Shown here: positions 14,311-42,290 of the stretch, in pieces | How positions within the stretch are numbered: the first letter of the stretch is position 1 | Layout of the letters: every line of letters begins with the position of its first letter | From: a virus | Taxonomy: Duplodnaviria > Caudoviricetes | Length of the DNA stretch: 58,359 nt | Reading direction: 5' to 3' (one strand) | Virus record (IMG/VR): IMGVR_UViG_3300017991_000124 | Coordinates: 1 to 58,359 of that record | Program-made: the position numbers and the translations under genes | Notes under the pieces: generated by a model | What the model saw: only the letters and a program-made list of their open reading frames with translations | The model's database searches: none | Told to the model about the DNA's origin: nothing

Positions 14311-15906
14311 TCACAGCGGGTAAAGCGCAACCCGTCCCAGGGTCACGATGTTGGGCCCGTCGATCACGTCGCCGGGCAGGTCGGGTTCGCTCCTCGAGAT
14401 GGACGTGAGCTCCGCGTTCGGCGCCACCCCGCCCAGCGCGTCGATCACCCGGCTCACCACGAGCTGGCCTGCGATCGACGGATACTGCTCCGACGGCGGC
14501 GGGTACCGGAACGCCCGCGCCGCTCGCGCGTCGGTGTCCAGGTCCACAACCTCGCCCGGCCCCAACTCGTCGAAATAGTCCGACAGCGCGTCGGCAATGA
14601 TAGTGAGGCGATCGGTTCCAGGGGACAGGTACTGCCCGGTGGCGATGGTCATCGTGGGGGCTGCGTTCAACTTGATCGTGGCGATCGGAGAACTGAACGA
14701 CACCTCCGACACGTCCAGTTCCTCCCACGCGCTGTTGTCCTCGTCCCAGAGCATCAGGCTGGGCACGTCGTCGCCGGTCAAGGTCGCAGCCCCGCCCGGG
14801 AGGGTTACATTCGTTTGCACCGTGAACTGCGTCTGCGAAGCGACGCCGTTTACCGTGACCGCCGGGTAGCTGCTGGAGTAGGTCGGCCAGGGCGAGGTGT
14901 CGGTCCAGCCGCCGGTTGTGCCGTACCCCATGCTAAGTCGCATCACCAGGTCGGAGTCCTGCTCGTTGGGTGGCACGCAGACGACGTAGGCCCGCTGCGG
15001 GGTGACCGGGCTGTCGGGTGGCACCAGGTAATTCCGGGCAGCGATCAGGGTAGCCGGCGCCACGTCGGTGCGCGCCTCGGGGCCCAGGGTGCTGCCCCGC
15101 TTCTGGAGCACGCAGACCATCAGGGATCCCGCGTGGAACACGCAGGGATAGACGAATGCAGACTCGATCGCGTTGCTGGCCGCGCGCGCCCAGTTGACGA
15201 AGTGCGCGGCGTTCCCGCAGGCCGGGCGGTAGGCGATGAACTGCTCGATCCGCGAGGCGTACTCGGTGTCCGTTTCGACGTCGAACCCGCCGGTGAAGTC
15301 CTCGTCCACCTCGGCGTCGTCCTGTGCGCCGACCGGCTTGTTGACGCTCCATGTCAACGTGGTAGTGGCCGGGGGGTTGGTGTCCGATCCGGTGTCGATC
15401 GCCCCCATCTCCAACGCGACCTGCGCGGATCCTGCGGGAACCGTGCCCGTGACCAGCACCTGATACTGCACGCCGTTCTGATCGACGGCGACACACGCCG
15501 TCGGGTCGCCCAGGGTAGTCGATCCGGTGAACACCGTGCCCGCCGGTCCGTAGGCCACCACCGGCCCGCTGCCGCCGGTGGCCGGCAGCTTGGATCCCTG
15601 CCCCAGCCAGAGCGGCCCGTGGAAGTTCTCCAGGAACGCGGTGTTGCTCCACGCCGGCCGCAGTTGGTTTGCCAGATACCGCGCGCGCGACTGCGATGCT
15701 TGCAGCGCCAAGTCCAGGCAATCGGCTTCGATGAAGAACGCGGACCCGCGCTGGGTCACTTCGATTACCGTGTCCTCGGTGAACAGCGCGGCGGTGTCCG
15801 GGTCGATCATCACCCGCAGCGCGTTGCGCAGGTTGCTCAGAACCACATCGTCGCGGATGTCGCCCCGGCGGAACAGGATGAACTGGCGTTCGTCTGCGGT
15901 GGTCAC
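14311..15906 (-). CDS. Baseplate J-like protein (Mu gp47-like)
   Basis: FTGGFDVETDTEYASRI...PACGNAAHFVNWA motif. Confidence 0.85.
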   Translation of the reverse strand: MTTADERQFILFRRGDIRDDVVLSNLRNALRVMIDPDTAALFTEDTVIEVTQRGSAFFIEADCLDLALQASQSRARYLANQLRPAWSNTAFLENFHGPLWLGQGSKLPATGGSGPVVAYGPAGTVFTGSTTLGDPTACVAVDQNGVQYQVLVTGTVPAGSAQVALEMGAIDTGSDTNPPATTTLTWSVNKPVGAQDDAEVDEDFTGGFDVETDTEYASRIEQFIAYRPACGNAAHFVNWARAASNAIESAFVYPCVFHAGSLMVCVLQKRGSTLGPEARTDVAPATLIAARNYLVPPDSPVTPQRAYVVCVPPNEQDSDLVMRLSMGYGTTGGWTDTSPWPTYSSSYPAVTVNGVASQTQFTVQTNVTLPGGAATLTGDDVPSLMLWDEDNSAWEELDVSEVSFSSPIATIKLNAAPTMTIATGQYLSPGTDRLTIIADALSDYFDELGPGEVVDLDTDARAARAFRYPPPSEQYPSIAGQLVVSRVIDALGGVAPNAELTSISRSEPDLPGDVIDGPNIVTLGRVALYPL

Positions 15907-16355
15907 GCGCTCGCCTCCGTGATGCTCTGCGTGGACCCCTTGGGCGCGCGCAGATTGACGTACTCGACTCGGAACTGCTGGGTCTGGTTGGTGCGGTCCG
16001 CGTCGTTGAAGAACACCCCGACCAGGCGGATGTCCTTATTGCGCCGCAGGCGGGCCAGCGCAGTGTTCACCTCGCTGCGAATGTCGTCCTGCATCGAGGC
16101 GGCCATGTGGCGAATCTTGTGCAACTGCGTGCCCTCGTCCGACACCGCCGGGCCATTCCAGCGGATCAGCGACAGCGCCAGCACCACCTGCGCGTCGATG
16201 GGATCCATGCCCCGGGTCAGGCTATCCCAGTCCCTGGTCATCGGGTTCCAGATCCGCGCCTTGAGCGGCGAAGGGGATTGGAGCGGGTCGGTGGCAAAGA
16301 CCAGAGCGCCCACGGGTTGCGCGGTGGACGGCAGGGCGATGCGGATGATCGTCAT
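15903..16355 (-). CDS. Baseplate wedge/sheath initiator (gp25/Mu gp46-like)
   Basis: 150 aa immediately upstream of baseplate J; C-terminal FRVEYVNLR. Confidence 0.6.
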   Translation of the reverse strand: MTIIRIALPSTAQPVGALVFATDPLQSPSPLKARIWNPMTRDWDSLTRGMDPIDAQVVLALSLIRWNGPAVSDEGTQLHKIRHMAASMQDDIRSEVNTALARLRRNKDIRLVGVFFNDADRTNQTQQFRVEYVNLRAPKGSTQSITEASA

Positions 16356-16361
16356 GGGCCA

Positions 16362-16390
16362 ATCCTATCATCAGCCGTGACGGCGGGCAA
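16362..16390 (-). promoter_or_regulatory. Promoter TTGCCC-N17-TAGGAT, probably leaderless
   Basis: -10 followed by TGGCCC-ATG; near-identical arrangement at 27741-27769. Confidence 0.5.
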
Positions 16391-16427
16391 ACGAGACGAA
16401 CGGGGGGGGCGGGACGATGGGGCGGGG

Positions 16428-16916
16428 TTACTTCTCGGTCTTGGGCAGGGGCAGTTGCGCGCGCACCCGCTTGGATTCCACGCGCGCCGCTCCAATGACC
16501 GCCGCCGTGACCTGGGCTACATGGTCCGCACGGCGTTGGCTCTCCTCGCTCATGCGCGCCCGATCCGACGAGGTGACCACCGCGCTCCCGCGCTTCACCG
16601 CCCGTAGACCCCCGCGATATTTAGAGGATCCGTGATCTACGCGCTCGTCCGGCGACAGCACCTTGAACCCGACGCCACGCTCGACGCCTACCAGTACGTT
16701 GTACTCCCGCCAGAGCACCGACCGCCATCGATCGGTGACCGTCTTGAACCGGGTGCTCTCCCGGGGCGTTCCGATCAGTTCCGCGATCTCGGCGTAGGGG
16801 ATCACTTGCCCCTCTTCGGGCACCTGATACCGCTCGCGCAGTCGCGCCAGTTCGATGTCGGTGGGCACGCCACCGAAGTACAACCCATCATCTTTTTGCT
16901 GATCATTCATCACCAC
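16428..16916 (-). CDS. Accessory protein of the RAMP/pentamer-array cassette (possible winged-helix)
   Basis: GGAGG SD just after last hairpin; YFGGVPTD...IPYAEIAELIG...RGVGFKVL. Confidence 0.7.
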   Translation of the reverse strand: MVMNDQQKDDGLYFGGVPTDIELARLRERYQVPEEGQVIPYAEIAELIGTPRESTRFKTVTDRWRSVLWREYNVLVGVERGVGFKVLSPDERVDHGSSKYRGGLRAVKRGSAVVTSSDRARMSEESQRRADHVAQVTAAVIGAARVESKRVRAQLPLPKTEK

Positions 16917-16925
16917 CTCCGTCGG

Positions 16926-17186
16926 TTAGAAATGCACCATTGGTGCCCATGCCAAGCCCGGCCAAGCCGCGCCGCGCCGAGCCCCGCCGCGCCGGGCCCG
17001 GCCGCGCTCCTAGTTGCGCCATTGGCGCCCTTGCCTCGCCTCGCCACGCCCAGCCGTGCCACGCCCTGCCGAGCCATGCCACGCTCCGTGCTAGTTGTCC
17101 CATTGGGACCCATGCCTTGCCCCGCCCGGCCCAGCCGCGCCTTGCCCAGCATGGCCTTGCCCCGCCGGGCCAGGCCAAGCCCCGAT
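16926..17186 (-). ncRNA. Putative guide-RNA array: three (GGC-NN)n tracts of 14, 11 and 12 pentamers, each ended by a 5-bp hairpin
   Basis: Tracts 17181-17112, 17085-17031, 17008-16949; hairpins GTCCC-AAT-GGGAC, GCGCC-AAT-GGCGC, GCACC-AAT-GGTGC; AACTAG linkers. The repeat is directly visible; the RNA role is inferred. Confidence 0.7.
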
Positions 17187-17193
17187 CCATGCA

Positions 17194-17898
17194 TCAGACC
17201 TGCGTCACGGTCGCCGCGAACTTGCCGAACACCCCCGGCGACTGCTTCGAACTCGGGCGCCAGTCGCACAACCCGCAGTACGCACCGCCGAGATCGAAGA
17301 ACTCCCGCACCACCTCGATCGGCAGCTTTTTGTCGTCCAGCACCGTCAGCGATCCGCGCGCCGTCCAGTTGCGAAATCGCGGGCGCACCCGGATGTGCTT
17401 CGCGCTCTTGACCCGCGCCCGCTTCACCAGCAGGTCGTAGCCCAGCGACCGCACCAGATCGATGTGCTTGGAGAATTGCCCCTCGTCGATCAACCCGGTG
17501 ATGTCGTCCCAAAGCACGGGGCGCCCGTTGGCCTCGATCGGCCAAATCTGCTCGTTGATCAGGATGCTCGACTGGCTCAGTTTCTTGTAGGTTGTTTGCC
17601 CCTTCAAGATCTTCATCGCCCCCGCCTCGCGCAACATGGTCATGAGGTTGTCGGCGGGGATGCCGACGACCGTTCCGTCGTGGTAGACGTTGCCGAGCCA
17701 CCGCCAGGGAGGGGACCGATCGTCGCCCGCCTTGCTCTCGGTCTTGTTGTCCGCGTTCTTGGCCCACGCCTCCATCTGATCGCCCCACACCACGTTGTCC
17801 TGGTGCATGAGCAGATCCGTGCCGCCCACGTCCGCAGAGCCGACAAGGTTGTCAAGGCAGACGGGGCGATTTGATGGAACAATTGCGAAACCAGACAT
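17194..17898 (-). CDS. Stand-alone RAMP/Cas7-like protein (start uncertain)
   Basis: GTDLLMH, VGIPADNLMTMLREAG, RVRPRFRNWTARGSL and C-terminal G-rich loop GGAYCGLCDWRP...GVFGKF occur in RAMP order. Confidence 0.7.
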   Translation of the reverse strand: MSGFAIVPSNRPVCLDNLVGSADVGGTDLLMHQDNVVWGDQMEAWAKNADNKTESKAGDDRSPPWRWLGNVYHDGTVVGIPADNLMTMLREAGAMKILKGQTTYKKLSQSSILINEQIWPIEANGRPVLWDDITGLIDEGQFSKHIDLVRSLGYDLLVKRARVKSAKHIRVRPRFRNWTARGSLTVLDDKKLPIEVVREFFDLGGAYCGLCDWRPSSKQSPGVFGKFAATVTQV

Positions 17899-17913
17899 TC
17901 ACAGTCGCGTAGT

Positions 17914-18201
17914 TCAGCAACGGAATACTACCTCACAGCACGTCTTTGCCTCCCGTGCCTCGCGGATCTGCCGCACCAGTCGCTCCCGTTGTTGCGGTGT
18001 CATCTTTCTCTTTTCTGCCGCTTCCCTGCGCAGTAGCAGCATGCCAAGACGGATTGCCAGGTCTGTCTCCTCACCGGTCATGCCAAACCGCTCCTGCATC
18101 TCCGCGCGGACCTCATCGGTGAACGGGTTGGTCAGCATCAGCCGCTCCAGCGCCTTCGTGCGGCGCCGTAGTGCCTCTTGCGAACAGTTCTTTTTCCCCA
18201 T
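17914..18201 (-). CDS. Small basic hypothetical protein, first gene of the inserted cassette
   Basis: GAGGAGG SD; TATAGT -10 upstream at about 18224-18229. Confidence 0.5.
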   Translation of the reverse strand: MGKKNCSQEALRRRTKALERLMLTNPFTDEVRAEMQERFGMTGEETDLAIRLGMLLLRREAAEKRKMTPQQRERLVRQIREAREAKTCCEVVFRC

Positions 18202-18261
18202 GGCGTTTCCCCTCCTCACACATACTATACCCCTGCTACCCGCTGCCGGGTAAAAGGTATG

Positions 18262-18573
18262 CTAGAGCGGGTCGAGGGGGCAGTAGAGCGAGGGGATAGA
18301 AAACGTCGGGATCGACGGCAACGGGATCGCCGGTAGTGCGAACGCCGGCAACGGGATCGCGGGGATACCCGGTAGGCTGGGCAGCGATGGGATGGTGAAG
18401 CTCGGGATCGACGGCAACGGGATTGCCGGCAGTGCGAACGCGGGGAGGGGGATCGCGGGAATCCCTGGAAGGCTTGGCAGTGTGGGGATCGTGAAGTTCG
18501 GGATGCTCGGCAGGGGAATCGCCGGGAGCGCGAAGCTCGGTAGCGGGATCGGCGGGAAAGCGCAGTTGGTCAT
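18262..18573 (-). CDS. Proline/aliphatic periodic-repeat protein
   Basis: About 2.8 copies of a 32-aa (96-nt) unit; TAATG coupling to upstream gene. Confidence 0.6.
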   Translation of the reverse strand: MTNCAFPPIPLPSFALPAIPLPSIPNFTIPTLPSLPGIPAIPLPAFALPAIPLPSIPSFTIPSLPSLPGIPAIPLPAFALPAIPLPSIPTFSIPSLYCPLDPL

Positions 18574-18866
18574 TAGCTGATGGTGCCGGTGCTGCTGGTG
18601 TTGGCGGTGTCCCCACCGCTGGTTACGTTGGCCGCGGTGCCGGTGGTGGTCACTTCAGCGTTGGCCACGACGTAGTTGACTATGACCTGCCCGATCGATT
18701 CGCACAGGTCGGCGACTTGCTGCTTCGCCGTCGCCAATTGCGCACCGGTCAGCGTGCCGTAACTGATCTTCGCATCGTAGTCTTGGAACACCGCATAGGC
18801 GCACCCGCTGCCGCTGTCGGCTCCGGTGCCAGGATCGATGGTGATGCTGCCGGGGTCCAAGGACAT
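18573..18866 (-). CDS. Small spike-associated protein
   Basis: AGGAGG SD; follows spike gene. Confidence 0.6.
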   Translation of the reverse strand: MSLDPGSITIDPGTGADSGSGCAYAVFQDYDAKISYGTLTGAQLATAKQQVADLCESIGQVIVNYVVANAEVTTTGTAANVTSGGDTANTSSTGTIS

Positions 18867-18875
18867 CGCATCCTC

Positions 18876-19670
18876 CTATGGGGTTGGCGACAGGAACAGC
18901 CGCGGGCAGGGGGCCGATGCCGGTCCCGCCAGTAGCGGCACGCCCAGGTTGGGGTCGCCGATTTTCACCGTGCCGTTGATCACGATCTGGTCGGCCTGCA
19001 GGTTGATCTCTCCAGGCTTCAGCGTGACCACCGCCACCTTGAGCCCCGACCCGGACGGGGAGTCCGGGCTTTGCAGTTGCACCGATCCCCCAAGCAGATC
19101 GTCTTGGAGCAGGATCGCCGCCCCGTTGGCGTGCACCACGCTGATCGACTCGTTGCCGCTGGTCGGGTCCAGGGTGATGACGTGCGCCTTCTGCGCCACG
19201 CCCGCAGCGTTGAAGTCGTAGGGGCAGTAGATCACCTGGATTGCCCCCTTGGTCAGATCGTCGTTGTCCACGGGGCTGATGGCGTGGTAGCCCCCGCCGT
19301 ACCCTACCAGTGCCACCGTGCCCTCGTTGGGGGCGTCGCCGAACATCCGCGCCCGCACGTCGCGCGAGGCGATGGGGATCAGCGAGTCCCCGAAGCGCAC
19401 GCACACTGCCTCGGCGTGGTCGCCGTCCGTGTCGTCATCGGGGGGCAGCGGCCGGCACACGATCCCGATCTGGCCGTACACGTCGCCGTCGTCCACCTCG
19501 CCCCCGCCGCCGTCGACCGTGGCCTCGTCCTCGTCGGCGGCCAGATCCAGGCCAGGCACCCCCTCCACCTGGTACTGTACCGGCCGCTTGGACCCCTGCA
19601 CGGCCTCGACCAGGCTGCTGCCCACCACGCGGCAGAACTGAAACACGGCATCGGCGGTGGTGCGCAGCAT
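18876..19670 (-). CDS. Baseplate spike (Mu gp45/gpV-like)
   Basis: YGQIGIVCRP...AEAVCV N-domain; C-terminal beta repeats INLQADQIVINGTVKIG. Confidence 0.7.
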   Translation of the reverse strand: MLRTTADAVFQFCRVVGSSLVEAVQGSKRPVQYQVEGVPGLDLAADEDEATVDGGGGEVDDGDVYGQIGIVCRPLPPDDDTDGDHAEAVCVRFGDSLIPIASRDVRARMFGDAPNEGTVALVGYGGGYHAISPVDNDDLTKGAIQVIYCPYDFNAAGVAQKAHVITLDPTSGNESISVVHANGAAILLQDDLLGGSVQLQSPDSPSGSGLKVAVVTLKPGEINLQADQIVINGTVKIGDPNLGVPLLAGPASAPCPRLFLSPTP

Positions 19671-20413
19671 CAGTCGATCCCCCGGACGCAGATCACCCGC
19701 GCGCCGATCGCGTCACCGTAGGCGAGGATTGCGGTTGTGATGTAATTGATCGTCCATCGTTGGCCCAGCACATCGGTTCGGATCGACCCGCTGCGGACAT
19801 CACCAAACCCGCACCCGTCCCCGAACGCCGCCGGCCAGTAGCAGCCGCCCGTCGGGCCGTCCCATGGCGCGCACCCGGTGCAGTCCTCCGCGTCGGCCTC
19901 GTCCAGCCACAGGGGGTCGCTCAGGGCGCACCCGTCGTCGCAGGGGGTGGCCAGCGCCCAGCGGAGCTCGTCGATAGTCGGCAGCCGCCAGCCGGATCCC
20001 AAAGCCGAGCAGTAGGCCGTAGCATCGGCGTGGTCGAGCAGCGTAGGTGCCGGGGCAGCCCAGCACCGGGCGCCGTCCTCCCAGAAGCAGTCCGCGTCCG
20101 TGTCGGTGTCGGGCCCGGGGTCACCGTCGGGCGCCCCGTCCGGCCCAGCGTCGGCGACAATTCCAGCGTCGCTATCCGTGTCGGTGTCGCCGTCCACGTC
20201 GCCGTCCGCATCCGTGTCGGTGTCGCCGTCGGCGCCCGAATCCGTGGCTGCGTCGCCAGCAGCGGCATCGCTGCCCGCGTCCTCCCCCGGGGCGGCATCC
20301 CAGGCCCCGGCATCCGTTCCGCCGTCTGGGGGCCATCCTGGGCCGTCTGACGGGTATGTCCCGTCGCACCCCGCCGCCGCCAGCACCAATAAAATCGCCA
20401 AATGTTTCATCAA
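19670..20413 (-). CDS. Lipoprotein with Asp-rich linker and DUF1566/Lcl-like domain
   Basis: Signal peptide plus lipobox (LVLAAAG-C); DTDTDADGD repeats; AYCSALGSGWRLPTIDELR; terminal VICVR. Confidence 0.75.
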   Translation of the reverse strand: MMKHLAILLVLAAAGCDGTYPSDGPGWPPDGGTDAGAWDAAPGEDAGSDAAAGDAATDSGADGDTDTDADGDVDGDTDTDSDAGIVADAGPDGAPDGDPGPDTDTDADCFWEDGARCWAAPAPTLLDHADATAYCSALGSGWRLPTIDELRWALATPCDDGCALSDPLWLDEADAEDCTGCAPWDGPTGGCYWPAAFGDGCGFGDVRSGSIRTDVLGQRWTINYITTAILAYGDAIGARVICVRGID

Positions 20414-21534
20414 CTGAGCACCCAGATCCCTTTCTTCAGCAGCGACAGGTTGGTGGCATCGCCTCCTGCCGGGTCACGCCTCAACGTAACCCCATGCACA
20501 AAGTATGCCCCCAGGGTGCCCCCGAGTACATCGGACTCGACCGCTACCACACAATCGACCCCCCAGTTGACGTTCCGGTAGCCGTCCCACCACGACAGCC
20601 CGTCCAGTTCCACGGTAATCGCGTCCTTGCCCTTGGACCGGGCGGCCAGTTCGCGCTTGATGGCGATCCGCGCCTCCTCGACGGAGCGCACCCCTTCGGC
20701 CTGCATCACGATCGGCCGATAGAACCCGGCGTCGGACACGTCCCGAACCCGGGCCATCTGGCTGACCCGCTTGCGCCCCCGGCCCTTGGGCACCTGGATC
20801 CCGGTCATCTGGATGCTGGAGGGGATGCCGGACCAGTCCTGGCCCCGGGTGATGCCCCGCACGTTGTTGCCCTGGCCCGCCGGCCCTCGGTTGGCCCGCA
20901 GGGTGTAGATCGGCGCCTGCGTGTCGTTGGGGGCGCCAACGAGGATCTTGCCGTCGGGGCTGTCCCAGTGGATCAGCCCGTGCCGGCGCAGGTGCCGGTC
21001 CGCCGCACCGTAGATGGTCTCGCCCGGCTGCACCTTGGCCTTCTGGGCGTTGACCTTCTTGAAGTCTGGCCCCGGACTCTGGCCCGTGGTGTCGCGCCCG
21101 GTCAGCAGGTTGCGGCCCAGCGCCTGGTCGTCGCCGATGAAGTCGGACGCGGTGTATCCCAGCGGTGCGTAGAGGGACAGCAGCAGATCCTTCAACGTCA
21201 TGTTCTTCTGGATGACGCCCGGGCTGGCCCCCGCGTACATGGCGTCCGCCAGCTTGGTGCGGACGGTGAACCGGACCACCGACCCCCCGGCCGCGTCCAG
21301 CGGGGCGTCGTTGAGCTCCACGCGCCCGGTGAGCCGCAGCCGGTCGTTGACGATCACCCGGTACTGCGTGCCGTGCGCCACCCGGTCGCTAATCTGACCC
21401 CAGGTGCCCGCGTTGCCCAACTCGAACGCCGCCTCGCTGGGGACCATCATGTCGTTGGTGATTTCGAAGCTGGTGAAGTTGTCCAGCGTCGGACCGCCGA
21501 CGATCTCCACCCGCGCGGTATCAGGCAGTCGCAT
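20410..21534 (-). CDS. Baseplate hub (Mu gp44-like)
   Basis: KVQPGETI...WDSPDGKILVG motif; synteny. Confidence 0.8.
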   Translation of the reverse strand: MRLPDTARVEIVGGPTLDNFTSFEITNDMMVPSEAAFELGNAGTWGQISDRVAHGTQYRVIVNDRLRLTGRVELNDAPLDAAGGSVVRFTVRTKLADAMYAGASPGVIQKNMTLKDLLLSLYAPLGYTASDFIGDDQALGRNLLTGRDTTGQSPGPDFKKVNAQKAKVQPGETIYGAADRHLRRHGLIHWDSPDGKILVGAPNDTQAPIYTLRANRGPAGQGNNVRGITRGQDWSGIPSSIQMTGIQVPKGRGRKRVSQMARVRDVSDAGFYRPIVMQAEGVRSVEEARIAIKRELAARSKGKDAITVELDGLSWWDGYRNVNWGVDCVVAVESDVLGGTLGAYFVHGVTLRRDPAGGDATNLSLLKKGIWVLS

Positions 21535-22489
21535 CGGCGAACACCCGCACCGGGGTGCCGGGCGGGATCTCCATCAGGTCGGCGATCTGCGGGTTGATCT
21601 CGATCAGCAGCGAGGCGTCCTGCTCCACGTCGGCCGCCACCAGGAAGATCGAGGTGGATACCTTGTAGCGCCGGGTCACCTGCCGGGGGAGTCCGCGTCG
21701 GGCACTCTGCCGCGACTTGCCGGCGATCTCCTTCTGGCGGTTGAGCTTGCGTTGCACGCCGGCCGAATCTGGGTCCAGCAGGATGTCGCGCCCCTCCTCG
21801 GCGGTGTTGGACCACGCCCTCACCACCCGGTCGTGCGCCCCCATCACCATCGCCGCCTGCTGCTCGTAGTCCTGCATCGTGTCGCCGGGCAGGTTGGCGA
21901 TCCCCTCCAGGTTGGCGGCCAGTTCGTTGAGATCTTGCAGGCTGCCGTCCCACATGCCCTCGGACTGCTCGGCGAACTCCGCGGCCTCGGCCAGTTCGTA
22001 GGCGTTGGCCGACACGGATGGCGCGACGAAGCTCGCCGCGTCCACGTTGTCCTCGTTGTCCTGCTTGAACACCAGGTCCACGCGCTCGCAGTCGCGCTCG
22101 GACCCCTCGGCCGACCGGTTCCAGGTCCAGGCCCGCGCACGGATGGTGCCGATGTTGGGCACGGTCAGGTCGCCCGTCTCGTGTTCTTCGAAGGCGTAGA
22201 TCAGCAGGTTGAGCACGTCCGGGTAGAGCTGCAACGAACCGTTGGTCTGCCGCAGCCCGGGCTCGGCGTTGCTATTCTCCTGCAACGAGTTCTCGAAAAT
22301 GCAGGACAGGTTGATCACCAACGCCTCGGCGCCCGTGTCGTCCAGCTTGGCCCCGTCCCGGTAGGGGCGCACCTGGTCGATGATCCGGTTGCCCCCGGTG
22401 ATGGTGATGCGCTCCACCGGGAACGCGATCTTGTTGCCCCCTACGGCCCAGGCGGCCGACGGGTACTGCTCGAAGGTGCCGCGCTGCAT
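21521..22489 (-). CDS. Mu gp43-like DNA circularisation/tube initiator protein with LysM-like end
   Basis: RPYRDGAKLDDTG N-domain; LIEINPQIADLMEIPPGTPVRV C-terminus; follows tape measure. Confidence 0.75.
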   Translation of the reverse strand: MQRGTFEQYPSAAWAVGGNKIAFPVERITITGGNRIIDQVRPYRDGAKLDDTGAEALVINLSCIFENSLQENSNAEPGLRQTNGSLQLYPDVLNLLIYAFEEHETGDLTVPNIGTIRARAWTWNRSAEGSERDCERVDLVFKQDNEDNVDAASFVAPSVSANAYELAEAAEFAEQSEGMWDGSLQDLNELAANLEGIANLPGDTMQDYEQQAAMVMGAHDRVVRAWSNTAEEGRDILLDPDSAGVQRKLNRQKEIAGKSRQSARRGLPRQVTRRYKVSTSIFLVAADVEQDASLLIEINPQIADLMEIPPGTPVRVFADATA

Positions 22490-22498: not shown

Positions 22499-24598
22499 CT
22501 AGCCCGGTGGCGTGTATGACCCAGGTTGGTTGCTGAGTCCGCTCTTGCCCCCCCGGGCGCCGCCACCCTTGGCGGGATCCGTTCCCCCTCCCCCCCCGCT
22601 GTTCTTCGCCAGTTTTTCTGCCGCCGCAGCCATTTTATCGGCGGCCTTCAACTGACGGTCCTGGGTCTTGGCCAGCAGGCGGATCGTTTCCTTGGCGTCA
22701 TCAAACGACGTGCGCCCCCCCGTCATCATGGCGATCGCGTCACCGAACTCGGTGGCAAAATCGCGGTTGATGGCTTTCTTGAACACCACGTCTTTTTCTT
22801 TTTCTAGGCTCGAGATACTCTTCCCCATCATCTCGATCCCCTTGGAACCGCCGACCTCCTTGGCTTGACGCTCAATGTCCCGCGCCTTGTCCAGAGCAGA
22901 TCGCCGCCCCGCCTCGCGCTCATCGTACTTCGCGCTGGCTTCGTCGATCTTGCTTTCCAACATCTTGCCCAGCGCGTACCCCATGGACGCGGCCCCAGCC
23001 AATGACGCCGCCGCCCCCATGGCACTCTGGTTCAGTTTCCAGAAACCGCCCTTCTTGCCACTCATTTCCTTGACGGCGGCAATCTCCATACGTCGCGCCC
23101 GGTTCAGGCGCATGGTTTCCTCTCGGCTGAGCTTCTGGCCCGCGAGCGCCTTCCGCTGCGCATCAACCGCCTTGGGATCAAACCGCGCGAGGCCGCCGAA
23201 TTTGCCGCCGCCACCTGCACCGCCCGCCCCGCCGCCGCCGAACCCACCCCCGGCCCCCGCTGCCAGCATTTCCCCGCCCCCGCCCAACGTGTTCATCATC
23301 GCCGGCAGCCCCAACCGCATCCCCGCCGCCATCCCCGCCGCACCCAACGGGTTACTGGTAATGAATTCCATCAGCGATGCGATCCCGTCGGCCAATGTCG
23401 GCAGAAGGTCTGCCAGACGCTCAATCGCGCTCAGCATCTTGGGCTGCGTGAACGCCTTCTGTACTTTGGTAATCGCCGCCCGCAGTTTGACCGTGGGATC
23501 CTCGTCCATGCGCTTCTCGTAGCGCGTCTGGAGTTTCTCCCATGTATAGTCGGTCTTGCTTACCGCCGTGACCATCTTATCGTAGGCGGACAGCCCCGCC
23601 TGGATCGCTTCCTGTTCGGACGCCCGCGCCTCAATCGCCTGCTCGTACGCCTCCACGAACGGCTTGCGCAACTCGTCAAACGAGGACCGCGCCGTCTCAG
23701 TGAACACCTTGAGCGACTCCTCGTGCATCTTGGGGTTCTTGAGGATCGTGCGGATTTTTTCGAACGGCGTGGAGTCCGCCTCGAACTTGATCTTGCCCGC
23801 CTTCTCCAACTGCTGCATCTGGGTGGTGCCCTCTTTCATGTACATCAGCATGGTCTTCAGACCACGGGCACCCATCCCCGCTCCCATCCGCGCGTCCAAC
23901 AGTTCTAGCGTGCCGAACAGTTCGGACACGTTCATCCCGGCCGCCGCCGCCTCACCAGCGGCGATGTCCATCCGCGACGACAGCTCGTCAATCCCCAACC
24001 CGCCGCGGTCGAGCTTCTCGAGGAACTGCGCCATCAACTGGTTCATGTTCTCGCTGGTGGCCCCCCACTTCCGGCGCAGCATGTGGGCGATGGTGGCCAA
24101 CTCGCTGGTGCTCTTGCCGGTGGCCGTGGCCGCGATTCCGATACTGTCGATCGCCCCCTTGGTGTACTCCAGATCCCCGGTGGCCGAGTACACCTCCTTG
24201 AACGCCGATGCCATGTCGCCGATGGTCTGCCCCGCGCGCATTGCCGAGTCGGTCACCAACTCCTGCGCCGCCTTCCAGTCCATCGTCTGCCCCGGGATCC
24301 GCTCTACCAGAAACGAGATGTCACGGAATTGCTTCTGCAGGTCGATCGAGTTTTTGATCATGCCGCCGATGGCGAACGCCCCGCCAAACGTCGCCATGGT
24401 CTTGATGCTGCCGGCGATCTGGCGGTCCATCCCCTTCATCACCGACTGCATCTTCTTACCAGCCGTGACGAACCCACGGCTCATGGCCGCGCTCATCTTG
24501 TGCCCGGCCTTCTGCACGTCGGCCGTCATGCGCTTCACGCCAGCCTGGAAGTCTCCACGCTTCAGGCTGACCCGAATGCCCGCTTCACGCATTGCCAT
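22499..24598 (-). CDS. Tape measure protein
   Basis: 699 aa helical A/M/K-rich protein after the chaperones. Confidence 0.85.
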   Translation of the reverse strand: MAMREAGIRVSLKRGDFQAGVKRMTADVQKAGHKMSAAMSRGFVTAGKKMQSVMKGMDRQIAGSIKTMATFGGAFAIGGMIKNSIDLQKQFRDISFLVERIPGQTMDWKAAQELVTDSAMRAGQTIGDMASAFKEVYSATGDLEYTKGAIDSIGIAATATGKSTSELATIAHMLRRKWGATSENMNQLMAQFLEKLDRGGLGIDELSSRMDIAAGEAAAAGMNVSELFGTLELLDARMGAGMGARGLKTMLMYMKEGTTQMQQLEKAGKIKFEADSTPFEKIRTILKNPKMHEESLKVFTETARSSFDELRKPFVEAYEQAIEARASEQEAIQAGLSAYDKMVTAVSKTDYTWEKLQTRYEKRMDEDPTVKLRAAITKVQKAFTQPKMLSAIERLADLLPTLADGIASLMEFITSNPLGAAGMAAGMRLGLPAMMNTLGGGGEMLAAGAGGGFGGGGAGGAGGGGKFGGLARFDPKAVDAQRKALAGQKLSREETMRLNRARRMEIAAVKEMSGKKGGFWKLNQSAMGAAASLAGAASMGYALGKMLESKIDEASAKYDEREAGRRSALDKARDIERQAKEVGGSKGIEMMGKSISSLEKEKDVVFKKAINRDFATEFGDAIAMMTGGRTSFDDAKETIRLLAKTQDRQLKAADKMAAAAEKLAKNSGGGGGTDPAKGGGARGGKSGLSNQPGSYTPPG

Positions 24599-25742: not shown

Positions 25743-27290
25743 CTAGCTCGGGATGCGAGCCACCTCCATGCCGATCTTGGCGAGCGGCTGGATGATCTCG
25801 AACGGGATGTAGGTGTCCACCTGCGTCGCGTCGCTGGCGTTGATCTGCACGATCAGCTCGTCGTTCTCGAGGATCTCGTCGAAGCCTTCGCCGTACACCA
25901 CGCCCTGCCCCTCCCAGTACCGGATCCGCGACACGATGAACGCCTTGATGTCGCGCTCCTCGCTGACGTTGGGCGGCAGCGGGGTAGTGGGGTCTGTGCG
26001 GTCGGGCATGATCTTCGCGCCCTCGAACTGGATGGGGGTCTGGCTGCGCAGGTCGCGCGCCACCACGAAGGTGCCGTCCACGTTCTGCGTGTCCAGCAGC
26101 CGGCGATCCGCGCCCCCCGCGCTGTCCTGGCTGTGCGTGGTGATGCCCCGGATCAGGTACTCGGCGTCCTGTGCCGTGTAGCCCACGATCGACACCCCGG
26201 CCCCCAGCGCCTGCTCCACCTCGGTGCTGGTCGGCTGGTCGGCGATTTTGTCGTGCGCGCCGTACAGGCCGACGTACTCCTCGCCGATCCGGTTGTAGGC
26301 CGGGTCCACGGAGATGGCGGCGATCCGCGCCCCCGCTTCCTCGGCGCCGAACTCGCCCGGCAGCGACCGCCCGTTGATGCACAGCAGGCACTCGCCGTAC
26401 TCGCTGTTGCTGCCCGCGTTGGAGTGCGGGGCCGCCGCGATGGCGGTGGCCAGCGACCCGGTGTACCCATACACCGTCTGCTGGAGCTTGGCGTTCTTGC
26501 CCTCGTTGTAGAGTTCGATGTGGTCGATGATCTTGGACACGTTGTTCGCGGTGCCCGTGTTGGCGATGTCGGTGTTGGACAAGACCGGCACGATGAAGTG
26601 GTACTCCTTGCCCGCCAGCGCCGCCAGGGCGTTGGTCAGGTTGGGATCCGTGGTGCCGCCGGTGAGCTTGGTGGTCCACGCGGTCGCGCCGCCCACCGCC
26701 TCCGTGCCCTGCTGGTCGCGCACGTCGCAGTGGATGTAGATGTCGTTCCCGATGTTGCCAGTGATCTTGGACGTCACGGTGCAGACTCCTGCGCCGCCGC
26801 TGGCCGCCGTGACCGGCAGGTCGTTTCCTCGGGCGTTAATGGCGTCGATCAGGGCGGTGGCGAAATCGGCCAGGCTGACGCCTGCTCCCCACACTACCTC
26901 GAACGATCGCCCCGCGATGTCCACGTCCACCACGCTGTCCACCGACGTGGCGCCGCTGGCGGTGATGGAGGCGGTGGCCGCCGTTGCTCCAGCCACGGGG
27001 GAGATCGCATCGATCACGGCCGCGCCGTAGCGGGAAAACAGGCGTCGCGCCGCCAAGTCGCCGGGCGTGCCAGGCCCGAACGACGTGGCCGATCCGCTCG
27101 CGTCCGTGCCGGTGCCGCTCAGGGTCCGCACCTCGGTGTCGTCCGTCAGGTCGCCCGAACTGCCCTTGGTGGCGACCAAGGCGATGCGCAGGGTGCCCGT
27201 CCCGGGGCTCGCCGCCCCCGCGAGCAGGTTGACCGACAGGTACAGCCCGGGGCCCAGAATGCTGGGACTCACAACAGGGGTCAGGGACAT
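25743..27290 (-). CDS. Tail sheath protein (Mu gpL-like)
   Basis: PGLYLSVN, LTGGTTDPNLTNAL, LIRGITT and QINASDATQVD motifs. Confidence 0.9.
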   Translation of the reverse strand: MSLTPVVSPSILGPGLYLSVNLLAGAASPGTGTLRIALVATKGSSGDLTDDTEVRTLSGTGTDASGSATSFGPGTPGDLAARRLFSRYGAAVIDAISPVAGATAATASITASGATSVDSVVDVDIAGRSFEVVWGAGVSLADFATALIDAINARGNDLPVTAASGGAGVCTVTSKITGNIGNDIYIHCDVRDQQGTEAVGGATAWTTKLTGGTTDPNLTNALAALAGKEYHFIVPVLSNTDIANTGTANNVSKIIDHIELYNEGKNAKLQQTVYGYTGSLATAIAAAPHSNAGSNSEYGECLLCINGRSLPGEFGAEEAGARIAAISVDPAYNRIGEEYVGLYGAHDKIADQPTSTEVEQALGAGVSIVGYTAQDAEYLIRGITTHSQDSAGGADRRLLDTQNVDGTFVVARDLRSQTPIQFEGAKIMPDRTDPTTPLPPNVSEERDIKAFIVSRIRYWEGQGVVYGEGFDEILENDELIVQINASDATQVDTYIPFEIIQPLAKIGMEVARIPS

Positions 27291-30345: not shown

Positions 30346-31389
30346 CTAGGTGTAGATGCCGGTGATGATGCCGCCGGCATAGGTCGAGACGAACTTGTGG
30401 TTGGAGGCCTCGGACACCACCACCATGTTGCCGCCCCTCGGCCCGCGTCCGTTGACGAACCACTCGCGCGTCTCCCAGCCGGTTCCGTTCGCGCCCTTGC
30501 GCCGGAACGTCGCGGCCGACATGATCTCCATCCCGTCGGTCGGCGGGGTGGGCGGACCGCTGATGAGCACGACCACCGCGCCCAGGCAGTAGGTCATGGT
30601 GCCGCTCGACAGGTACCGGCTCTTGATCACGTGGAACGGCGGCAGGCCCGGGATCTGGAAGTCGGTGATCACCCCGCCCTGGCCGATCGGCGGCGGGTTG
30701 TCCCCGTAGAACTGGCGCATGTGGTCCTTCGTCTGCGGGTGCCGCAGGAAGATGTGCGCCGCCTTCTCGTTCAGCCAGAGGCCGGTGACCTCTTGGTACG
30801 ACTTCTCGATCGCCGTCATCACGTCGGTGACCGGCGTCCCCAGGGTCTCGTCGGTCCACACGTTGCCGGCCGCCGTGCGCACCGCCGCGTTCCAGTTGGT
30901 GTTGGTGCCCAGCAGCGTCGTGATGTCGATCTCCATGTCCAGGTAGATCGCATCCGCGCAGCGGGCCGCGGTCCGCGTCCGCACGCCGTAGGTCGCCTGC
31001 TCCTCGGTCACCGTGGGGATGAACCCGCCGATGAACCGGTCGACCACCGTGTAGTCGTCCAGCGAGCTGGTAGCGTCGATCTCGGGCGGCGCGCTCTGGA
31101 TCGAGGCCTTGACCTCGACGTGCTCGAACGCGTTGTCCGAGGAGAACACCCGGAACTTGTCCGTGTCCTTGTCCACCGGCACCACCGGGCACATCTCCGT
31201 GCCGCGGTACTTGAACGGCTTGTAGCCGAACAGGTACTCGGGGAGCTCGGACGGGTCGTGGACGTCCGAGGGGGTGAGCGTCAGGGTCACGCGCTGGTCG
31301 CCGACCATCGCCTCGACCTCGCCGCCGTGGAAGTTGCGCCCCATGCCGCTCAGGAATCGGACGGGCTCGTTCATATTGAGTTGCGTCAT
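30346..31389 (-). CDS. Major capsid protein
   Basis: 347 aa after protease and decoration genes; CPVVPVDK motif; C-terminal AGGIITG; AAGGAGG SD. Confidence 0.85.
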   Translation of the reverse strand: MTQLNMNEPVRFLSGMGRNFHGGEVEAMVGDQRVTLTLTPSDVHDPSELPEYLFGYKPFKYRGTEMCPVVPVDKDTDKFRVFSSDNAFEHVEVKASIQSAPPEIDATSSLDDYTVVDRFIGGFIPTVTEEQATYGVRTRTAARCADAIYLDMEIDITTLLGTNTNWNAAVRTAAGNVWTDETLGTPVTDVMTAIEKSYQEVTGLWLNEKAAHIFLRHPQTKDHMRQFYGDNPPPIGQGGVITDFQIPGLPPFHVIKSRYLSSGTMTYCLGAVVVLISGPPTPPTDGMEIMSAATFRRKGANGTGWETREWFVNGRGPRGGNMVVVSEASNHKFVSTYAGGIITGIYT

Positions 31390-31399
31390 GGCGTCCTCC

Positions 31400-31801
31400 T
31401 TACGGCATCGCGGCGCCGCAACCGGCACCGAGCTCGACTTCCATGTAGGCCGACGCGGCGCCGACCGTGACGGCGGTCCCCACGATGGAGTTGCCGCTGG
31501 TCGCCTTGAGCGCCTTGGCGCCCGTGGTCGGCATCACCTGCTCGCCCTCGGCGATGGTGCCCCCGGCCAGCACGATGGCGCGCCCTGCGATCTGGCAGTC
31601 GCCCCGGCTGGCGTCGGCGATGTCGTTCACCAGCACGCCGTACACGTTGTCCGTGTTGCCGGCGGCGGCCTCGATCTCGCCCTTGTAGGTCGCGCTCGCC
31701 TTGAGCTTGACGAAGGTCCCCTTCGACAACGTGCCGCCGGTCCCGTTGTACACCTGGCGCACGCCCTTCTCGGGAACGATTGCGGTAAGCACTGCGGTCA
31801 T
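31400..31801 (-). CDS. Capsid decoration/cement protein (DUF2190-like)
   Basis: VLAGGTIAEGEQV...VGTAVT; between scaffold and MCP. Confidence 0.75.
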   Translation of the reverse strand: MTAVLTAIVPEKGVRQVYNGTGGTLSKGTFVKLKASATYKGEIEAAAGNTDNVYGVLVNDIADASRGDCQIAGRAIVLAGGTIAEGEQVMPTTGAKALKATSGNSIVGTAVTVGAASAYMEVELGAGCGAAMP

Positions 31802-36292: not shown

Positions 36293-36481
36293 ATGGCCTT
36301 CGAAAAACGACCGGTGAGGGACGAGATGATCCGATTCCTGGTGACCCCCGAGGAGCGGGAGATCATCCAAGCGGCGGCCGAACAGGACGGGATCACCGTG
36401 TCGGAATATATCCGGGCGACCCTTCAGCGTGCGATGGCGCACACCGCAAAATCAGAGCGCCGACCGAAATCTAATCGCTAG
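36293..36481 (+). CDS. Ribbon-helix-helix regulator (DUF1778/MobC-like)
   Basis: IRFLVTPEEREIIQAAAEQDGITVSEYIR; GAGGA SD; TATAAT at 36254. Confidence 0.75.
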   Translation: MAFEKRPVRDEMIRFLVTPEEREIIQAAAEQDGITVSEYIRATLQRAMAHTAKSERRPKSNR

Positions 36482-39324: not shown

Positions 39325-39341
39325 CGGCGATCTCCTGTCCG

Positions 39342-39719
39342 CTAATCCTTCAACGCCCCCATCATCGCACCGCGCAGCCGATCGCGCAAGGTTCGCCGCG
39401 TGGCCGGGCGCTGGGCCACCGCCTGGCCGAGGTGCCGCGTTCCCTCGGCACGCGCCTTCCCTGCTGCGGCGGTCAACTGGCCGAGGATCTCCTTGACCTG
39501 CGCTGCCCACTGCACCAACCCGTCTAGGTTCGCCTGCACCTGTGGATTGCGCTCGGCCTCCGATTGGCAGGCCTCGACCCACTGATCGATCCACGCCGAC
39601 AACTGCTGGACGCTGGACGCCATCCCGTCCGCCCGCCCCGCGTGCAGGCCCGCCATGTAAAGCAGGTAGTCGCGGCCCTTCAACGTCAGCGTCTGCACCT
39701 CGGGGGTGGGTTTGTCCAC
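39342..39719 (-). CDS. Hypothetical helical protein
   Basis: AGGAGGAG SD before GTG 39719. Confidence 0.6.
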   Translation of the reverse strand: MDKPTPEVQTLTLKGRDYLLYMAGLHAGRADGMASSVQQLSAWIDQWVEACQSEAERNPQVQANLDGLVQWAAQVKEILGQLTAAAGKARAEGTRHLGQAVAQRPATRRTLRDRLRGAMMGALKD

Positions 39720-41391: not shown

Positions 41392-41425
41392 CGGATCTCC
41401 GGGGGGCGGTGTCAAGCATGATCCC

Positions 41426-41454
41426 CTTATACCCCGGGGCGGGGAGCGGGGCAA
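41426..41454 (-). promoter_or_regulatory. Promoter TTGCCC-N17-TATAAG upstream of terL
   Basis: 17-nt spacing directly after the recombinase stop codon. Confidence 0.5.
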
Positions 41455-42135: not shown

Positions 42136-42290
42136 CGGGATCCCTCCTCTGCTAGTTTGCGGGCCGCGCGCTCCAGTTCCGTCGCTCGGCGTACGAGGTC
42201 CGCCGCGTCCCGGTCCAACCGGCGGCGCCGGCCCTCGGCCATGCGCGCCTGCCACCGGGCGGCGGCGGGGCGCTTGGCGGCAACCTCCAT
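42132..42290 (-). CDS. Small Arg-rich hypothetical protein
   Basis: Fills gap; ATGA overlap with the recombinase. Confidence 0.4.
   Translation of the reverse strand: MEVAAKRPAAARWQARMAEGRRRRLDRDAADLVRRATELERAARKLAEEGSR

What the first reader, a model, noticed from the sequence alone, without database searches (positions are those of the whole stretch)
16926..17898. Stand-alone RAMP/Cas7-like gene plus (GGC-NN)n array: candidate RNA-guided system with a non-contiguous code
Seen: 12 nt after the stop of a 234-aa gene, the minus strand carries 37 in-register pentamers in three tracts. Each has a constant triplet (34 GGC, 2 AGC, 1 TGC) and a freely varying dinucleotide. I found no CRISPR array or other cas gene in the window. 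Knowledge: the protein's motif order (GTDLLMH, IPADNL..MLREA, RPRF..W, G-rich loop GLCDWRP..FGKF) parallels RAMP/Cas7 backbone subunits, which polymerise on RNA with a fixed step. Inference: one subunit binds each GGC and displays NN for pairing, giving three programmable guides. From memory this resembles recently reported phage 'VIPR' GGY/NN systems; I cannot verify that here.
Basis: partly seen in the sequence, partly recalled or inferred. Interest (0 to 1): 0.95.

Follow-up and report, generated by a model that had tools for sequence, protein, structure and literature searches.

The report
Phage VIPR guide-RNA locus
This uncultured phage carries a VIPR system, a CRISPR-related RNA-guided DNA silencer first described in 2026, made of a small Cas7-like protein, three guide RNAs written in five-base units and a helper gene, so it is a real but already known kind of system.

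Summary
Twelve bases after the stop of the 234-aa gene (17194-17898, minus strand) lie three tracts of 14, 11 and 12 NN-GGC pentamers. Simulated sequence never gave runs longer than 5 units.

- **Relatives:** 108 of 114 related loci carry GGY-NN arrays on the gene strand, and none carry them on the other strand.
- **Partner gene:** a 160-aa downstream gene is co-conserved in 91 of 114 loci and weakly resembles the gene after vipr in the SUSP1-like phage wV8.
- **Guide ends:** each guide ends in a 5-bp hairpin supported by covariation, not the SUSP1 pseudoknot. Arrays in this clade end with a GG-purine unit.
- **Context:** the contig is a contractile-tailed phage with no cas genes and no CRISPR array.

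No natural target and no RNA data were found. Verdict: a new member of a known kind.

The parts
17194..17898 (-). vipr gene: 234-aa Cas7-like RAMP protein (Vipr). Residues 1-11 are modelled as disordered. The first ~20 residues differ from the 98%-identical relative P0001.
17091..17183 (-). vrRNA 1 (boundaries approximate, no RNA data). 14 NN-GGC units at 17114-17183, one degenerate (CATGC). Then a GG-purine unit AUGGG, a hairpin GUCCC-AAU-GGGAC at 17097-17109, and AACUAG.
17011..17087 (-). vrRNA 2 (boundaries approximate). 11 units at 17033-17087, the first being GGAGC. Then AAGGG, a hairpin GCGCC-AAU-GGCGC at 17016-17028, and AACUAG.
16928..17010 (-). vrRNA 3 (boundaries approximate). 12 units at 16951-17010, the first being GGAGC. 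Then AUGGG, a hairpin GCACC-AAU-GGUGC at 16934-16946, and an A/U-rich stretch that runs into the ribosome-binding site of the next gene.
16428..16910 (-). Candidate vipr-accessory (vap-like) gene, 160 aa from the ATG at 16910 (162 aa if the GTG at 16916 is used). Fold and function are not established.
   Evidence: tblastn homologue next to vipr, on the same strand, in 91 of 114 related loci. Alignment A4. hhalign to wV8 gp94, the gene after vipr there: probability 76.4%, E 2.2e-5, 103 columns. No PDB or Pfam match. phrog_5926 of unknown function. Atlas gives only viral hypothetical clusters, with a weak TM of 0.33 to Trans_reg_C over residues 17-87.

Best explanation
This is a VIPR (Viral Interference Programmable Repeat) locus in the tail-gene region of an uncultured contractile-tailed phage. 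It reads vipr, then three vrRNAs, then a vap-like gene, all on the minus strand.

Proposed mechanism:
1. The three repeat tracts are transcribed and become three guide RNAs of about 80-95 nt (inferred).
2. One Vipr protomer binds each GGC-NN unit. H32, R172, D212 and W213 hold the two G's, and the C sits in a pocket that excludes purines. The protein forms a helical filament that flips out GGC and presents the 11-14 NN dinucleotides. This is shown for SUSP1 Vipr in the cited preprints and inferred here from homology and conserved contact residues.
3. The filament reads double-stranded DNA in which each NN is followed by one skipped base, so it tracks codon periodicity, and silences transcription of a competing mobile element. 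This is shown for SUSP1 and not tested for this clade.
4. The tract ends at a GG-purine unit followed by a 5-bp hairpin that caps the 3' end, in place of the SUSP1 pseudoknot. The hairpin is supported by covariation. Its capping role is inferred.
5. The 160-aa partner probably helps at the DNA, as Vap1 does in SUSP1 (inferred; weak homology only).
For: Homology:
- PDB 36pp_D 'SUSP1 Vipr protein' is the best sequence match (E 0.0011 alone; E 1.2e-16 with the family profile, covering profile positions 1-211 of 219 and chain residues 1-184 of 202).
- hhalign of the profile against gp95 of the SUSP1-like phage wV8 gives 99.3% probability, E 7.6e-21, 189 columns.

Contact residues. The SUSP1 residues named in 10.64898/2026.04.26.720927 (sections 5-6) are H17, R138, D177, W178, R179, C173 and K33. 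They align to H32, R172, D212, W213, R214, C208 and K47 (printed alignments). H32, R172, D212, W213 and R214 are invariant in 38 family members.

RNA:
- 37 GGC-NN units in tracts of 14, 11 and 12 units, within the published 9-16 range.
- NN entropy is about 2 bits against about 0 bits at GGC.
- There is no codon signature: G+C by codon position is 0.72/0.74/0.70 over the arrays against 0.65/0.49/0.91 in ten structural genes.
- Tail hairpin: 98.1% of cells paired, 3 of 5 pairs with changes on both sides, 0 of 500 shuffles as high.

Family:
- Arrays of 6 or more units lie on the gene strand in 108 of 114 related loci and on the opposite strand in 0 of 114.
- The vap-like gene is present in 91 of 114 loci.
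- 3,263 cluster representatives match the family profile at E<=1e-3.

Context. Terminase, portal, major head, sheath, tape-measure and baseplate genes are present. There are no cas genes and no CRISPR array. No self-target reaches 80% identity, and the best self matches equal the shuffled-guide null, as the paper reports for its own systems.
Against: - No natural target was found for any of the three guides. The 1-nt-skip rule and DNA silencing are therefore untested for this clade.
- A test of 377 relatives' guides against 652 kb of related loci showed no enrichment for any skip rule. That target set is small.
- No RNA evidence exists, so the transcripts and their ends are inferred.
- Foldseek alone gave no match at E<=0.001 (best 5e-3).
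- The two helix-1 residues that shape the pyrimidine pocket in SUSP1 (E71, M72) are not conserved. They align to D83-N84 or N84-L85, depending on the aligner.
- The first ~20 residues differ from the 98%-identical relative P0001 and are modelled at low confidence.
- Homology of the partner gene to the SUSP1-type vap is weak (76% probability), and its fold could not be predicted.
Confidence: 0.92

Rival explanations
1. It is a VIPR-family locus that works by a different rule or on a different substrate than SUSP1, for example another skip length, RNA targets, or destruction rather than silencing.
For: No target matching the 1-nt-skip code was found. No skip rule was enriched among relatives' guides on the small set available. 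The helix-1 pocket residues and the 3' tail differ from SUSP1. Vipr identity to SUSP1-type proteins is only about 21%. The paper itself describes seven types with different accessory genes.
Against: The GG-contact residues and K47, the counterpart of the residue that contacts the backbone at the skipped base in SUSP1, are conserved. The repeat unit is the canonical GGY-NN. The partner gene has no nuclease or helicase signature in Pfam or PADLOC. The failed target search covered only exact 8-10-unit seeds in two collections.
Confidence: 0.06
2. The locus is a decaying or inactive VIPR remnant carried passively by the phage.
For: The N-terminal ~20 residues differ from the near-identical relative and are modelled poorly. 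Each tract has one degenerate unit (TGC or AGC). No target was found.
Against: The ORF is intact, and all invariant family residues listed are present. 34 of 37 units are perfect GGC. The three hairpins keep pairing through compensatory changes. The vap-like ORF is intact. Internal degenerate units are described as frequent in functional vrRNAs.
Confidence: 0.015
3. The pentamer tracts are part of a protein-coding gene (a Gly/Ala/Arg/Trp-rich repeat peptide, ORF 16903-17190) or are DNA-level protein-binding repeats, unrelated to the upstream gene.
For: A 95-aa ORF is open across the tracts. Only 5 of 165 long arrays in relatives have stops in all three sense frames, so stop codons alone do not exclude coding.
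Against: A period of 5 cannot be kept by codon selection. G+C is flat across codon positions. The three tracts are in three registers. Arrays lie only on the vipr strand in 108 of 114 loci, which argues for an RNA made with the gene. The tail hairpin covaries. The homologous SUSP1 arrays are shown to be RNAs bound by Vipr.
Confidence: 0.005

Closest known systems
VIPR systems of Escherichia phage SUSP1 and the Pseudomonas fulva prophage (type II; bioRxiv 10.64898/2026.04.26.720920, 10.64898/2026.04.26.720927, 10.64898/2026.10.15.759431)
   Same: A stand-alone Cas7-like Vipr protein with the same GG-contact residues. Guide RNAs of 9-16 GGY-NN units followed by a structured 3' tail that begins AUGGG, also seen in the SUSP1-like phage wV8. 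A small second gene. A phage context. No CRISPR array, no cas genes and no self-targets.
   Different: Only about 21% identity to the SUSP1-type protein. Y is always C here, whereas wV8 uses T. The tail is a 5-bp hairpin with an AAU loop and not a pseudoknot. All three guides lie between vipr and the partner gene and none lies upstream. The partner gene is only weakly similar. Targets are unknown. I could not assign one of the seven published types, because the figures and supplements were not available.
Related uncultured-phage VIPR loci found here (e.g. L001, L003, L042, L093, L098)
   Same: 43-55% identical Vipr, the same vap-like gene, and GGC-NN arrays on the gene strand. 13 of 97 loci searched share the same hairpin tail.
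   Different: Most relatives separate successive guides by a bare GGAAC or GGATC unit (185 and 34 of 537 arrays). These may be the 'staggered arrays' of the paper. Many also have arrays upstream of vipr. In the window the hairpin sits inside that motif (AUGG[hairpin]AACUAG).
Cas7 backbone subunits of class 1 CRISPR effectors (Csm3 of type III-A, Cas7 of type VII, Cas7-11)
   Different: No Pfam RAMP or Cas7 model matches. There is no CRISPR array, no Cas5, Cas6, Cas10 or small subunit, and no adaptation genes. The step is 5 nt with 3 bases flipped out and a gapped target, instead of 6 nt with 1 base flipped.

Membership tests
VIPR system | Vipr protein homologous to an experimentally characterised Vipr | tested here: met
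   Family profile against PDB 36pp_D SUSP1 Vipr: E 1.2e-16, near full length. hhalign 99.3% against wV8 gp95. The single sequence gives E 0.0011.
VIPR system | Residues that bind the GGY motif (SUSP1 H17, R138, D177, W178, R179) | tested here: met
   They align to H32, R172, D212, W213 and R214. All five are invariant in 38 family members. The pocket residues E71 and M72 are not conserved.
VIPR system | Adjacent tandem YNNGG/GGY-NN repeats (4 or more units; 9-16 in characterised vrRNAs) with fixed GGY and hypervariable NN | tested here: met
   14, 11 and 12 units, starting 12 nt after the stop, on the same strand. Entropy 0.19/0/0 against 1.98/1.99 bits. Simulations gave 5 units or fewer.
VIPR system | Conserved structured 3' tail after the repeat tract | tested here: met
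   A 5-bp hairpin after each tract. Covariation over 21 tails from the window and 11 loci: 98.1% paired, 13 cells changed on both sides, 0 of 500 shuffles as high. The shape differs from the SUSP1 pseudoknot.
VIPR system | Minimal locus of vipr plus an accessory vap gene, with no CRISPR array and no other cas genes | tested here: met
   The 160-aa gene is co-conserved in 91 of 114 loci and weakly similar to the gene after vipr in wV8. No cas hits in 44 of 55 ORFs scanned. No CRISPR-like repeats.
VIPR system | Arrays travel with the protein across the family | tested here: met
   108 of 114 related loci have arrays of 6 or more units on the gene strand, and 0 of 114 have them on the other strand. 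The six without (L050, L096, L105, L106, L111, L114) include short or cut loci. Two of them (L050, L111) still hold tail hairpins.
VIPR system | vrRNAs are expressed and bound by Vipr | not testable with these tools
   No RNA run holds the stretch. This needs sRNA-seq and a pull-down.
VIPR system | Guides match natural DNA targets under the 1-nt-skip rule (80% or more NN identity) | tested here: inconclusive
   Searches with exact seeds of 8-10 units in viral contigs and one in metagenome contigs gave only chance-level extensions. A mismatch-tolerant search of whole collections was not possible.
CRISPR-Cas class 1 effector (Cas7) | CRISPR repeat-spacer array and partner cas genes (Cas5, Cas6, large and small subunits) | tested here: not met
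   None in the 58-kb contig. No Pfam RAMP family at E<=1. The fold is shared but the locus is not a CRISPR-Cas system.

The most novel reading that the evidence does not exclude
In this large uncultured-phage branch of VIPR, the end of each guide is written in the repeat code itself. The tract stops at a GG-purine unit that the pyrimidine pocket of Vipr cannot accept: 3 of 3 in the window, and 439 of 527 arrays in relatives against 36 of 524 units before arrays. The 3' cap ranges from a bare GGAAC to a 13-nt hairpin inserted into that same motif (GG^AAC). If so, the elaborate SUSP1 pseudoknot is dispensable. A one-base change (Y to R) would then set guide length and filament end, which would be a simple design rule for minimal programmable vrRNAs. 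The main texts of the two preprints I read do not mention this ('GGR' and 'terminat' have 0 occurrences in 10.64898/2026.04.26.720927). Their figures and supplements, which I could not see, may.
Probability: 0.4. Interest if true: 0.45.

Novelty: new member of a known kind. Interest (0 to 1): 0.35.

Why it matters
VIPR is a newly described class of RNA-guided DNA recognition that may pre-date CRISPR, and only SUSP1-type and P. fulva-type systems have been studied at the bench.

This locus adds a compact, canonical GGC-NN example from a distant, high-G+C environmental phage. It has an intact protein, three guides and a very small hairpin tail. Its family is large (3,263 cluster representatives).

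It is useful as comparative material for three questions: which residues and RNA features are truly required, how guides are terminated, and what the conserved 160-aa partner does. It does not open a new category. The same scan has already met several VIPR loci on other DNA.

Tried and rejected
1. **Natural targets.** Each GGC was replaced by one wildcard, following the paper's query form.
   - The full 10-unit core of guide 2 and a 9-unit 3' seed of guide 1 gave 0 hits in viral contigs.
   - 8-unit 3' seeds of guides 1-3 gave 21, 22 and 23 hits. 8-unit 5' seeds of guides 1-2 gave 24 and 12 hits.
   - Extension over the full guide was at chance level. The best scores were 21/28, 19/22 and 20/24, where 16 matches were forced by the seed.
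   - A 9-unit seed of guide 1 in metagenome contigs gave 21 hits. The best was 22/28 with 18 forced, and 17 of the 21 loci had G+C of 0.54 or lower.
   - Guide 1 with up to 3 mismatches in five whole records behind related loci gave 0 hits.
   - In the window and the 114 related loci, nothing reached 80% for guides 1 and 2. For guide 3 the best was 18 of 22 under the 0- and 3-nt skip rules and 17 of 22 under the 1-nt rule, so no rule stood out. Self hits equalled the shuffled-guide null.
2. **Skip rule for the clade.** I tested 377 unique guides of relatives against 652 kb of loci. Skips of 0-3 were indistinguishable. The target set is too small to say anything.
3. **RNA evidence.** No RNA holder is listed. 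Laying four DNA metagenome runs showed the exact contig over 16400-17814 in X1-X3, which may be the source of this DNA. Many other contigs aligned only to the array part.
4. **Rfam.** No family matched in 16000-19000 at E<=1 or in the whole window at gathering score, so there is no hammerhead between guides. No tRNAs were found.
5. **Promoters and terminators.** The scan of 16300-18700 found no promoter-like site and one terminator-like site, at 18304-18317 and outside the locus. The host's promoter type is unknown.
6. **vap-like protein.** It has no PDB, Pfam or PADLOC match. Structure prediction was not accepted. The Atlas gave only viral hypothetical clusters. I therefore do not call it a winged-helix protein.
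7. **Host.** The terminase has only relatives below 30% identity among cultured phages.
9. **Stop codons.** I rejected them as an argument against coding, because only 5 of 165 long arrays have stops in all three frames.
Full report
**1. What is there**

On the minus strand, a 234-aa ORF (17194-17898) ends in TGA. Twelve bases later the first of three pentamer tracts begins.

In NN-GGY register the tracts are:
- 17114-17183: 14 units, one of them TGC.
- 17033-17087: 11 units, the first AGC.
- 16951-17010: 12 units, the first AGC.

Each tract is in register internally, but the three tracts are in different global registers.

They are the only runs of 5 or more units in the 58,359-base window on either strand. 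Sixty first-order Markov simulations never gave a perfect run longer than 5 units, against 11 observed.

Over 35 units read in GGY-NN register, the fixed positions carry 0.19, 0 and 0 bits of entropy. The NN positions carry 1.98 and 1.99 bits, with 15 different dinucleotides, although the genome is 67.3% G+C.

G+C by codon position is flat over the tracts (0.72/0.74/0.70). Ten structural genes of the same contig average 0.65/0.49/0.91. The open 95-aa frame across the tracts therefore has no coding signature.

**2. The tails**

Each tract is followed by A(U/A)GGG, a 5-bp hairpin with an AAU loop, and, for tracts 1 and 2, AACUAG. The stems are GUCCC/GGGAC, GCGCC/GGCGC and GCACC/GGUGC. The three copies differ by compensatory changes at two stem positions.

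The same hairpin follows arrays in a minority of related loci. I aligned 21 tails: 3 from the window and 18 from 11 loci. I left out two with 4-bp stems, exact duplicates, and background CAATGG hits that do not follow an array.

On that alignment, 98.1% of cells pair, 3 of 5 pairs change on both sides, 13 cells are compensatory, and 0 of 500 shuffles reach these values. Slid controls pair at 28-40%.

A covariance model built from this alignment found 45 matches. They lie in the window and in 13 of 97 loci searched, all on the gene strand. Seventeen duplicate or near-duplicate loci were left out, and most matches are in the loci the model was built from.

Rfam has no family here.

**3. The protein**

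Pfam gives nothing, and PHROGs gives phrog_4652 of unknown function.

Against PDB sequences, the best hit of the single sequence is 36pp_D 'SUSP1 Vipr protein' (E 0.0011, residues 157-216). A profile of 38 family members (A1) matches that chain at E 1.2e-16, over profile positions 1-211 of 219 and chain residues 1-184 of 202. It is the only hit at E<=1.

The same profile aligns to gp95 of the SUSP1-like phage wV8 with 99.3% probability, E 7.6e-21, over 189 columns.

The structural preprint (sections 5 and 6 read) names H17, D177, R138 and W178 as holding the two guanines. It names R179 and C173 as part of the pyrimidine pocket, and K33 as contacting the target backbone at the skipped base. In the printed alignments these fall on H32, D212, R172, W213, R214, C208 and K47. 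H32, R172, D212, W213 and R214 are invariant in A1. The helix-1 pocket residues E71 and M72 are not conserved, and their register differs between the two aligners.

AlphaFold2 on A1 gave pLDDT 86.7 and pTM 0.83, with residues 1-11 disordered. Foldseek against the PDB found no match at E<=0.001. Its top rows (best E 5e-3) are nevertheless all CRISPR Csm, type VII or Cas7-11 chains.

The solved Vipr entry is in the sequence copy of the PDB. It did not appear in the fold library, which stops at April 2026.

**4. The family**

The search for homologous proteins returned 966 proteins at E<=1e-3, one 98% identical and the rest about 50%. The exhaustive profile search found 3,263 cluster representatives at E<=1e-3, 617 at E<=1e-10 and 268 at E<=1e-30.

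I fetched 80 viral loci (189 were confirmed; the best 80 were kept) and 34 genome loci. Arrays of 6 or more NNGGY units lie on the gene strand in 108 of 114 loci and on the opposite strand in 0 of 114. Two of the six loci without arrays still hold tail hairpins.

The 160-aa gene downstream of the window's arrays (16428-16910) has a homologue next to vipr, on the same strand, in 91 of 114 loci. The 101-aa gene upstream has a homologue in 0 of 114.

A profile of 30 of these partner proteins (A4) aligns to wV8 gp94, the gene that follows vipr there, at 76.4% probability, E 2.2e-5, over 103 columns. It has no PDB or Pfam match. The Atlas lists only viral hypothetical clusters, with a weak TM of 0.33 to an OmpR-type winged helix. 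I treat it as a candidate vap of unknown fold.

**5. Context**

The 'genome' held for this window is the window itself, a virus record. PHROGs identifies:
- large terminase (39733-41454)
- portal-containing protein (36478-39594)
- protease (31839-33881)
- major head protein (30346-31428)
- tail sheath (25743-27290)
- tape measure (22499-24598)
- baseplate hub (20410-22489)
- baseplate wedge (14311-15906)
- serine integrase or invertase (41455-42426)
- RecE-like exonuclease (1380-2330)

The VIPR locus sits between baseplate genes, on the same strand as nearly all genes.

PADLOC finds no cas protein in 44 of 55 ORFs scanned. No CRISPR-like repeat family exists. Cultured phages are very distant: the terminase is below 30% identical to any of them.

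The DNA occurs in sediment and seawater metagenomes, and some of those runs may be its source.

**6. Comparison with what is known**

The literature search listed three VIPR preprints.
- For 10.64898/2026.04.26.720920 I read the outline and abstract, all of the Results, Methods sections 18, 20, 26 and 27, and passages found by term search.
- For 10.64898/2026.04.26.720927 I read the outline, sections 5, 6 and 8, and found passages.
- For 10.64898/2026.10.15.759431 I read the outline, abstract and Methods section 17.

The papers define VIPR by the following:
- a Vipr RAMP protein
- vrRNAs of 9-16 YNNGG repeats with a 3' tail
- usually one vap gene
- a mostly viral or proviral location
- no CRISPR array
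- recognition of double-stranded DNA in which each NN is followed by one skipped base
- transcriptional silencing of competing elements

Every sequence-level criterion is met here (see Membership tests). The functional criteria could not be tested.

The differences from SUSP1 type II are:
- about 21% protein identity
- C only at the Y position
- a hairpin and not a pseudoknot
- all guides between vipr and the partner gene

**7. Targets**

Following the papers' query form, I searched for NNx-coded matches. Details are in Tried and rejected.
- Nothing above chance was found in viral contigs or metagenome contigs with exact 8-10-unit seeds.
- Nothing was found in five whole related records with up to 3 mismatches.
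- In the 114 loci, guides 1 and 2 stayed below 80% under every skip rule. Guide 3 reached 18 of 22 under the 0- and 3-nt skips and 17 of 22 under the 1-nt skip, so no rule stood out.
- In the window itself, the best self hits equal the shuffled-guide null.

Absence of self-targets agrees with the paper. The seed searches cannot see targets with scattered mismatches, so this is no evidence against targeting.

The NN positions are about half A+T in a 67% G+C phage. That fits first and second codon positions of a high-G+C target, but this is only an inference.

**8. Noted beyond the finding**

In relatives, successive guides are mostly separated by a bare GGAAC (185 of 537 arrays) or GGATC (34 of 537). 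In the window the hairpin sits inside that motif: AUGG[hairpin]AACUAG and AAGG[hairpin]AACUAG.

More generally, the unit after the last GGY unit is NN-GG-purine in 439 of 527 arrays of 112 distinct loci. The unit before an array is NN-GG-purine in only 36 of 524. It is also GG-purine in 3 of 3 window tracts and in wV8.

Since the pyrimidine pocket excludes purines, a GG-purine unit may mark the end of the filament. This is my inference. The main text of the structural preprint has no occurrence of 'GGR' or 'terminat'. I did not see the figures or supplements.

**9. Verdict**

The system belongs to a kind published in 2026, so it is a new member of a known kind. Earlier agents of this scan reached the same verdict for other VIPR loci on other DNA. 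Confidence that it is a VIPR locus is 0.92. Interest is 0.35.

Noticed in passing
window 16928-17120 and loci L001, L003, L042, L093, L098: The two tail classes are related. Most relatives punctuate guides with a bare GGAAC or GGATC. The window and 13 of 97 loci searched carry a 13-nt hairpin inserted into that motif (GG^AAC). The hairpin class is not found in the closest Vipr relatives (L001-L003, 50-55% identity) but appears in more distant ones (37-45%). Tail type therefore looks patchy on the protein tree.
   Followed up: partly
related loci L001-L114; window 16946-16950, 17028-17032, 17109-17113: Arrays end with an in-register NN-GG-purine unit in 439 of 527 arrays, against 36 of 524 units before arrays. 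This is a possible built-in stop for Vipr polymerisation.
   Followed up: partly
window 17785-17898: The first ~20 codons of vipr differ from the otherwise 98%-identical protein P0001 (MSGFAIVPSNRPVCLDNLVG... against MYRLEVELNG...). Metagenome contigs break or branch at 17785-17868. This suggests strain-level variation or recombination at the 5' end of the gene.
   Followed up: partly
window 16912-17167, in runs X1-X3 and X5: In the metagenomes that hold this contig, many other contigs align at 80-90% to the array part only and then run on unlike it. Other GGC-NN arrays are therefore common in the same samples.
   Followed up: no
window 18262-18573 (-): A 103-aa ORF just upstream of the locus is made of three 96-nt tandem repeats encoding a proline-rich IPLPS-type repeat. 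It has no PHROG family.
   Followed up: no
window 33886-36084 (-): A 732-aa ORF between the portal and protease genes contains nine copies of a 66-nt-spaced G+C-rich repeat (family D1). It has no PHROG family. It may be a Gly/Ala-rich repeat protein of the head module.
   Followed up: no
window 58181-58359: Three 60-nt tandem repeats, 92-93% identical, run into the end of the contig inside ORF 57680-58351.
   Followed up: no
window 42990-44327 (-) and 41455-42426 (-): A ParB-like domain fused to a DNA methyltransferase (phrog_498, E 1.5e-126) lies close upstream of a serine integrase or invertase gene, which directly abuts the large terminase gene.
   Followed up: no
P0032 (relative of Vipr): Its called N-terminal extension (MAWFGSAGRGKARLGMAR...) looks like a translated upstream GGC-NN array. 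Gene callers sometimes swallow vrRNA arrays into the vipr ORF.
   Followed up: no
phages collection: H15 Pseudomonas phage vB_Pae_LESphi2 4900-5451; H14 Gordonia phage MakoManhole 59251-59793: These two are the only cultured-phage proteins with near full-length similarity to the window Vipr (24-25% identity, E 2e-6 and 3e-6). Both are annotated as hypothetical. About 120 Felixounavirus-type records match weakly.
   Followed up: no
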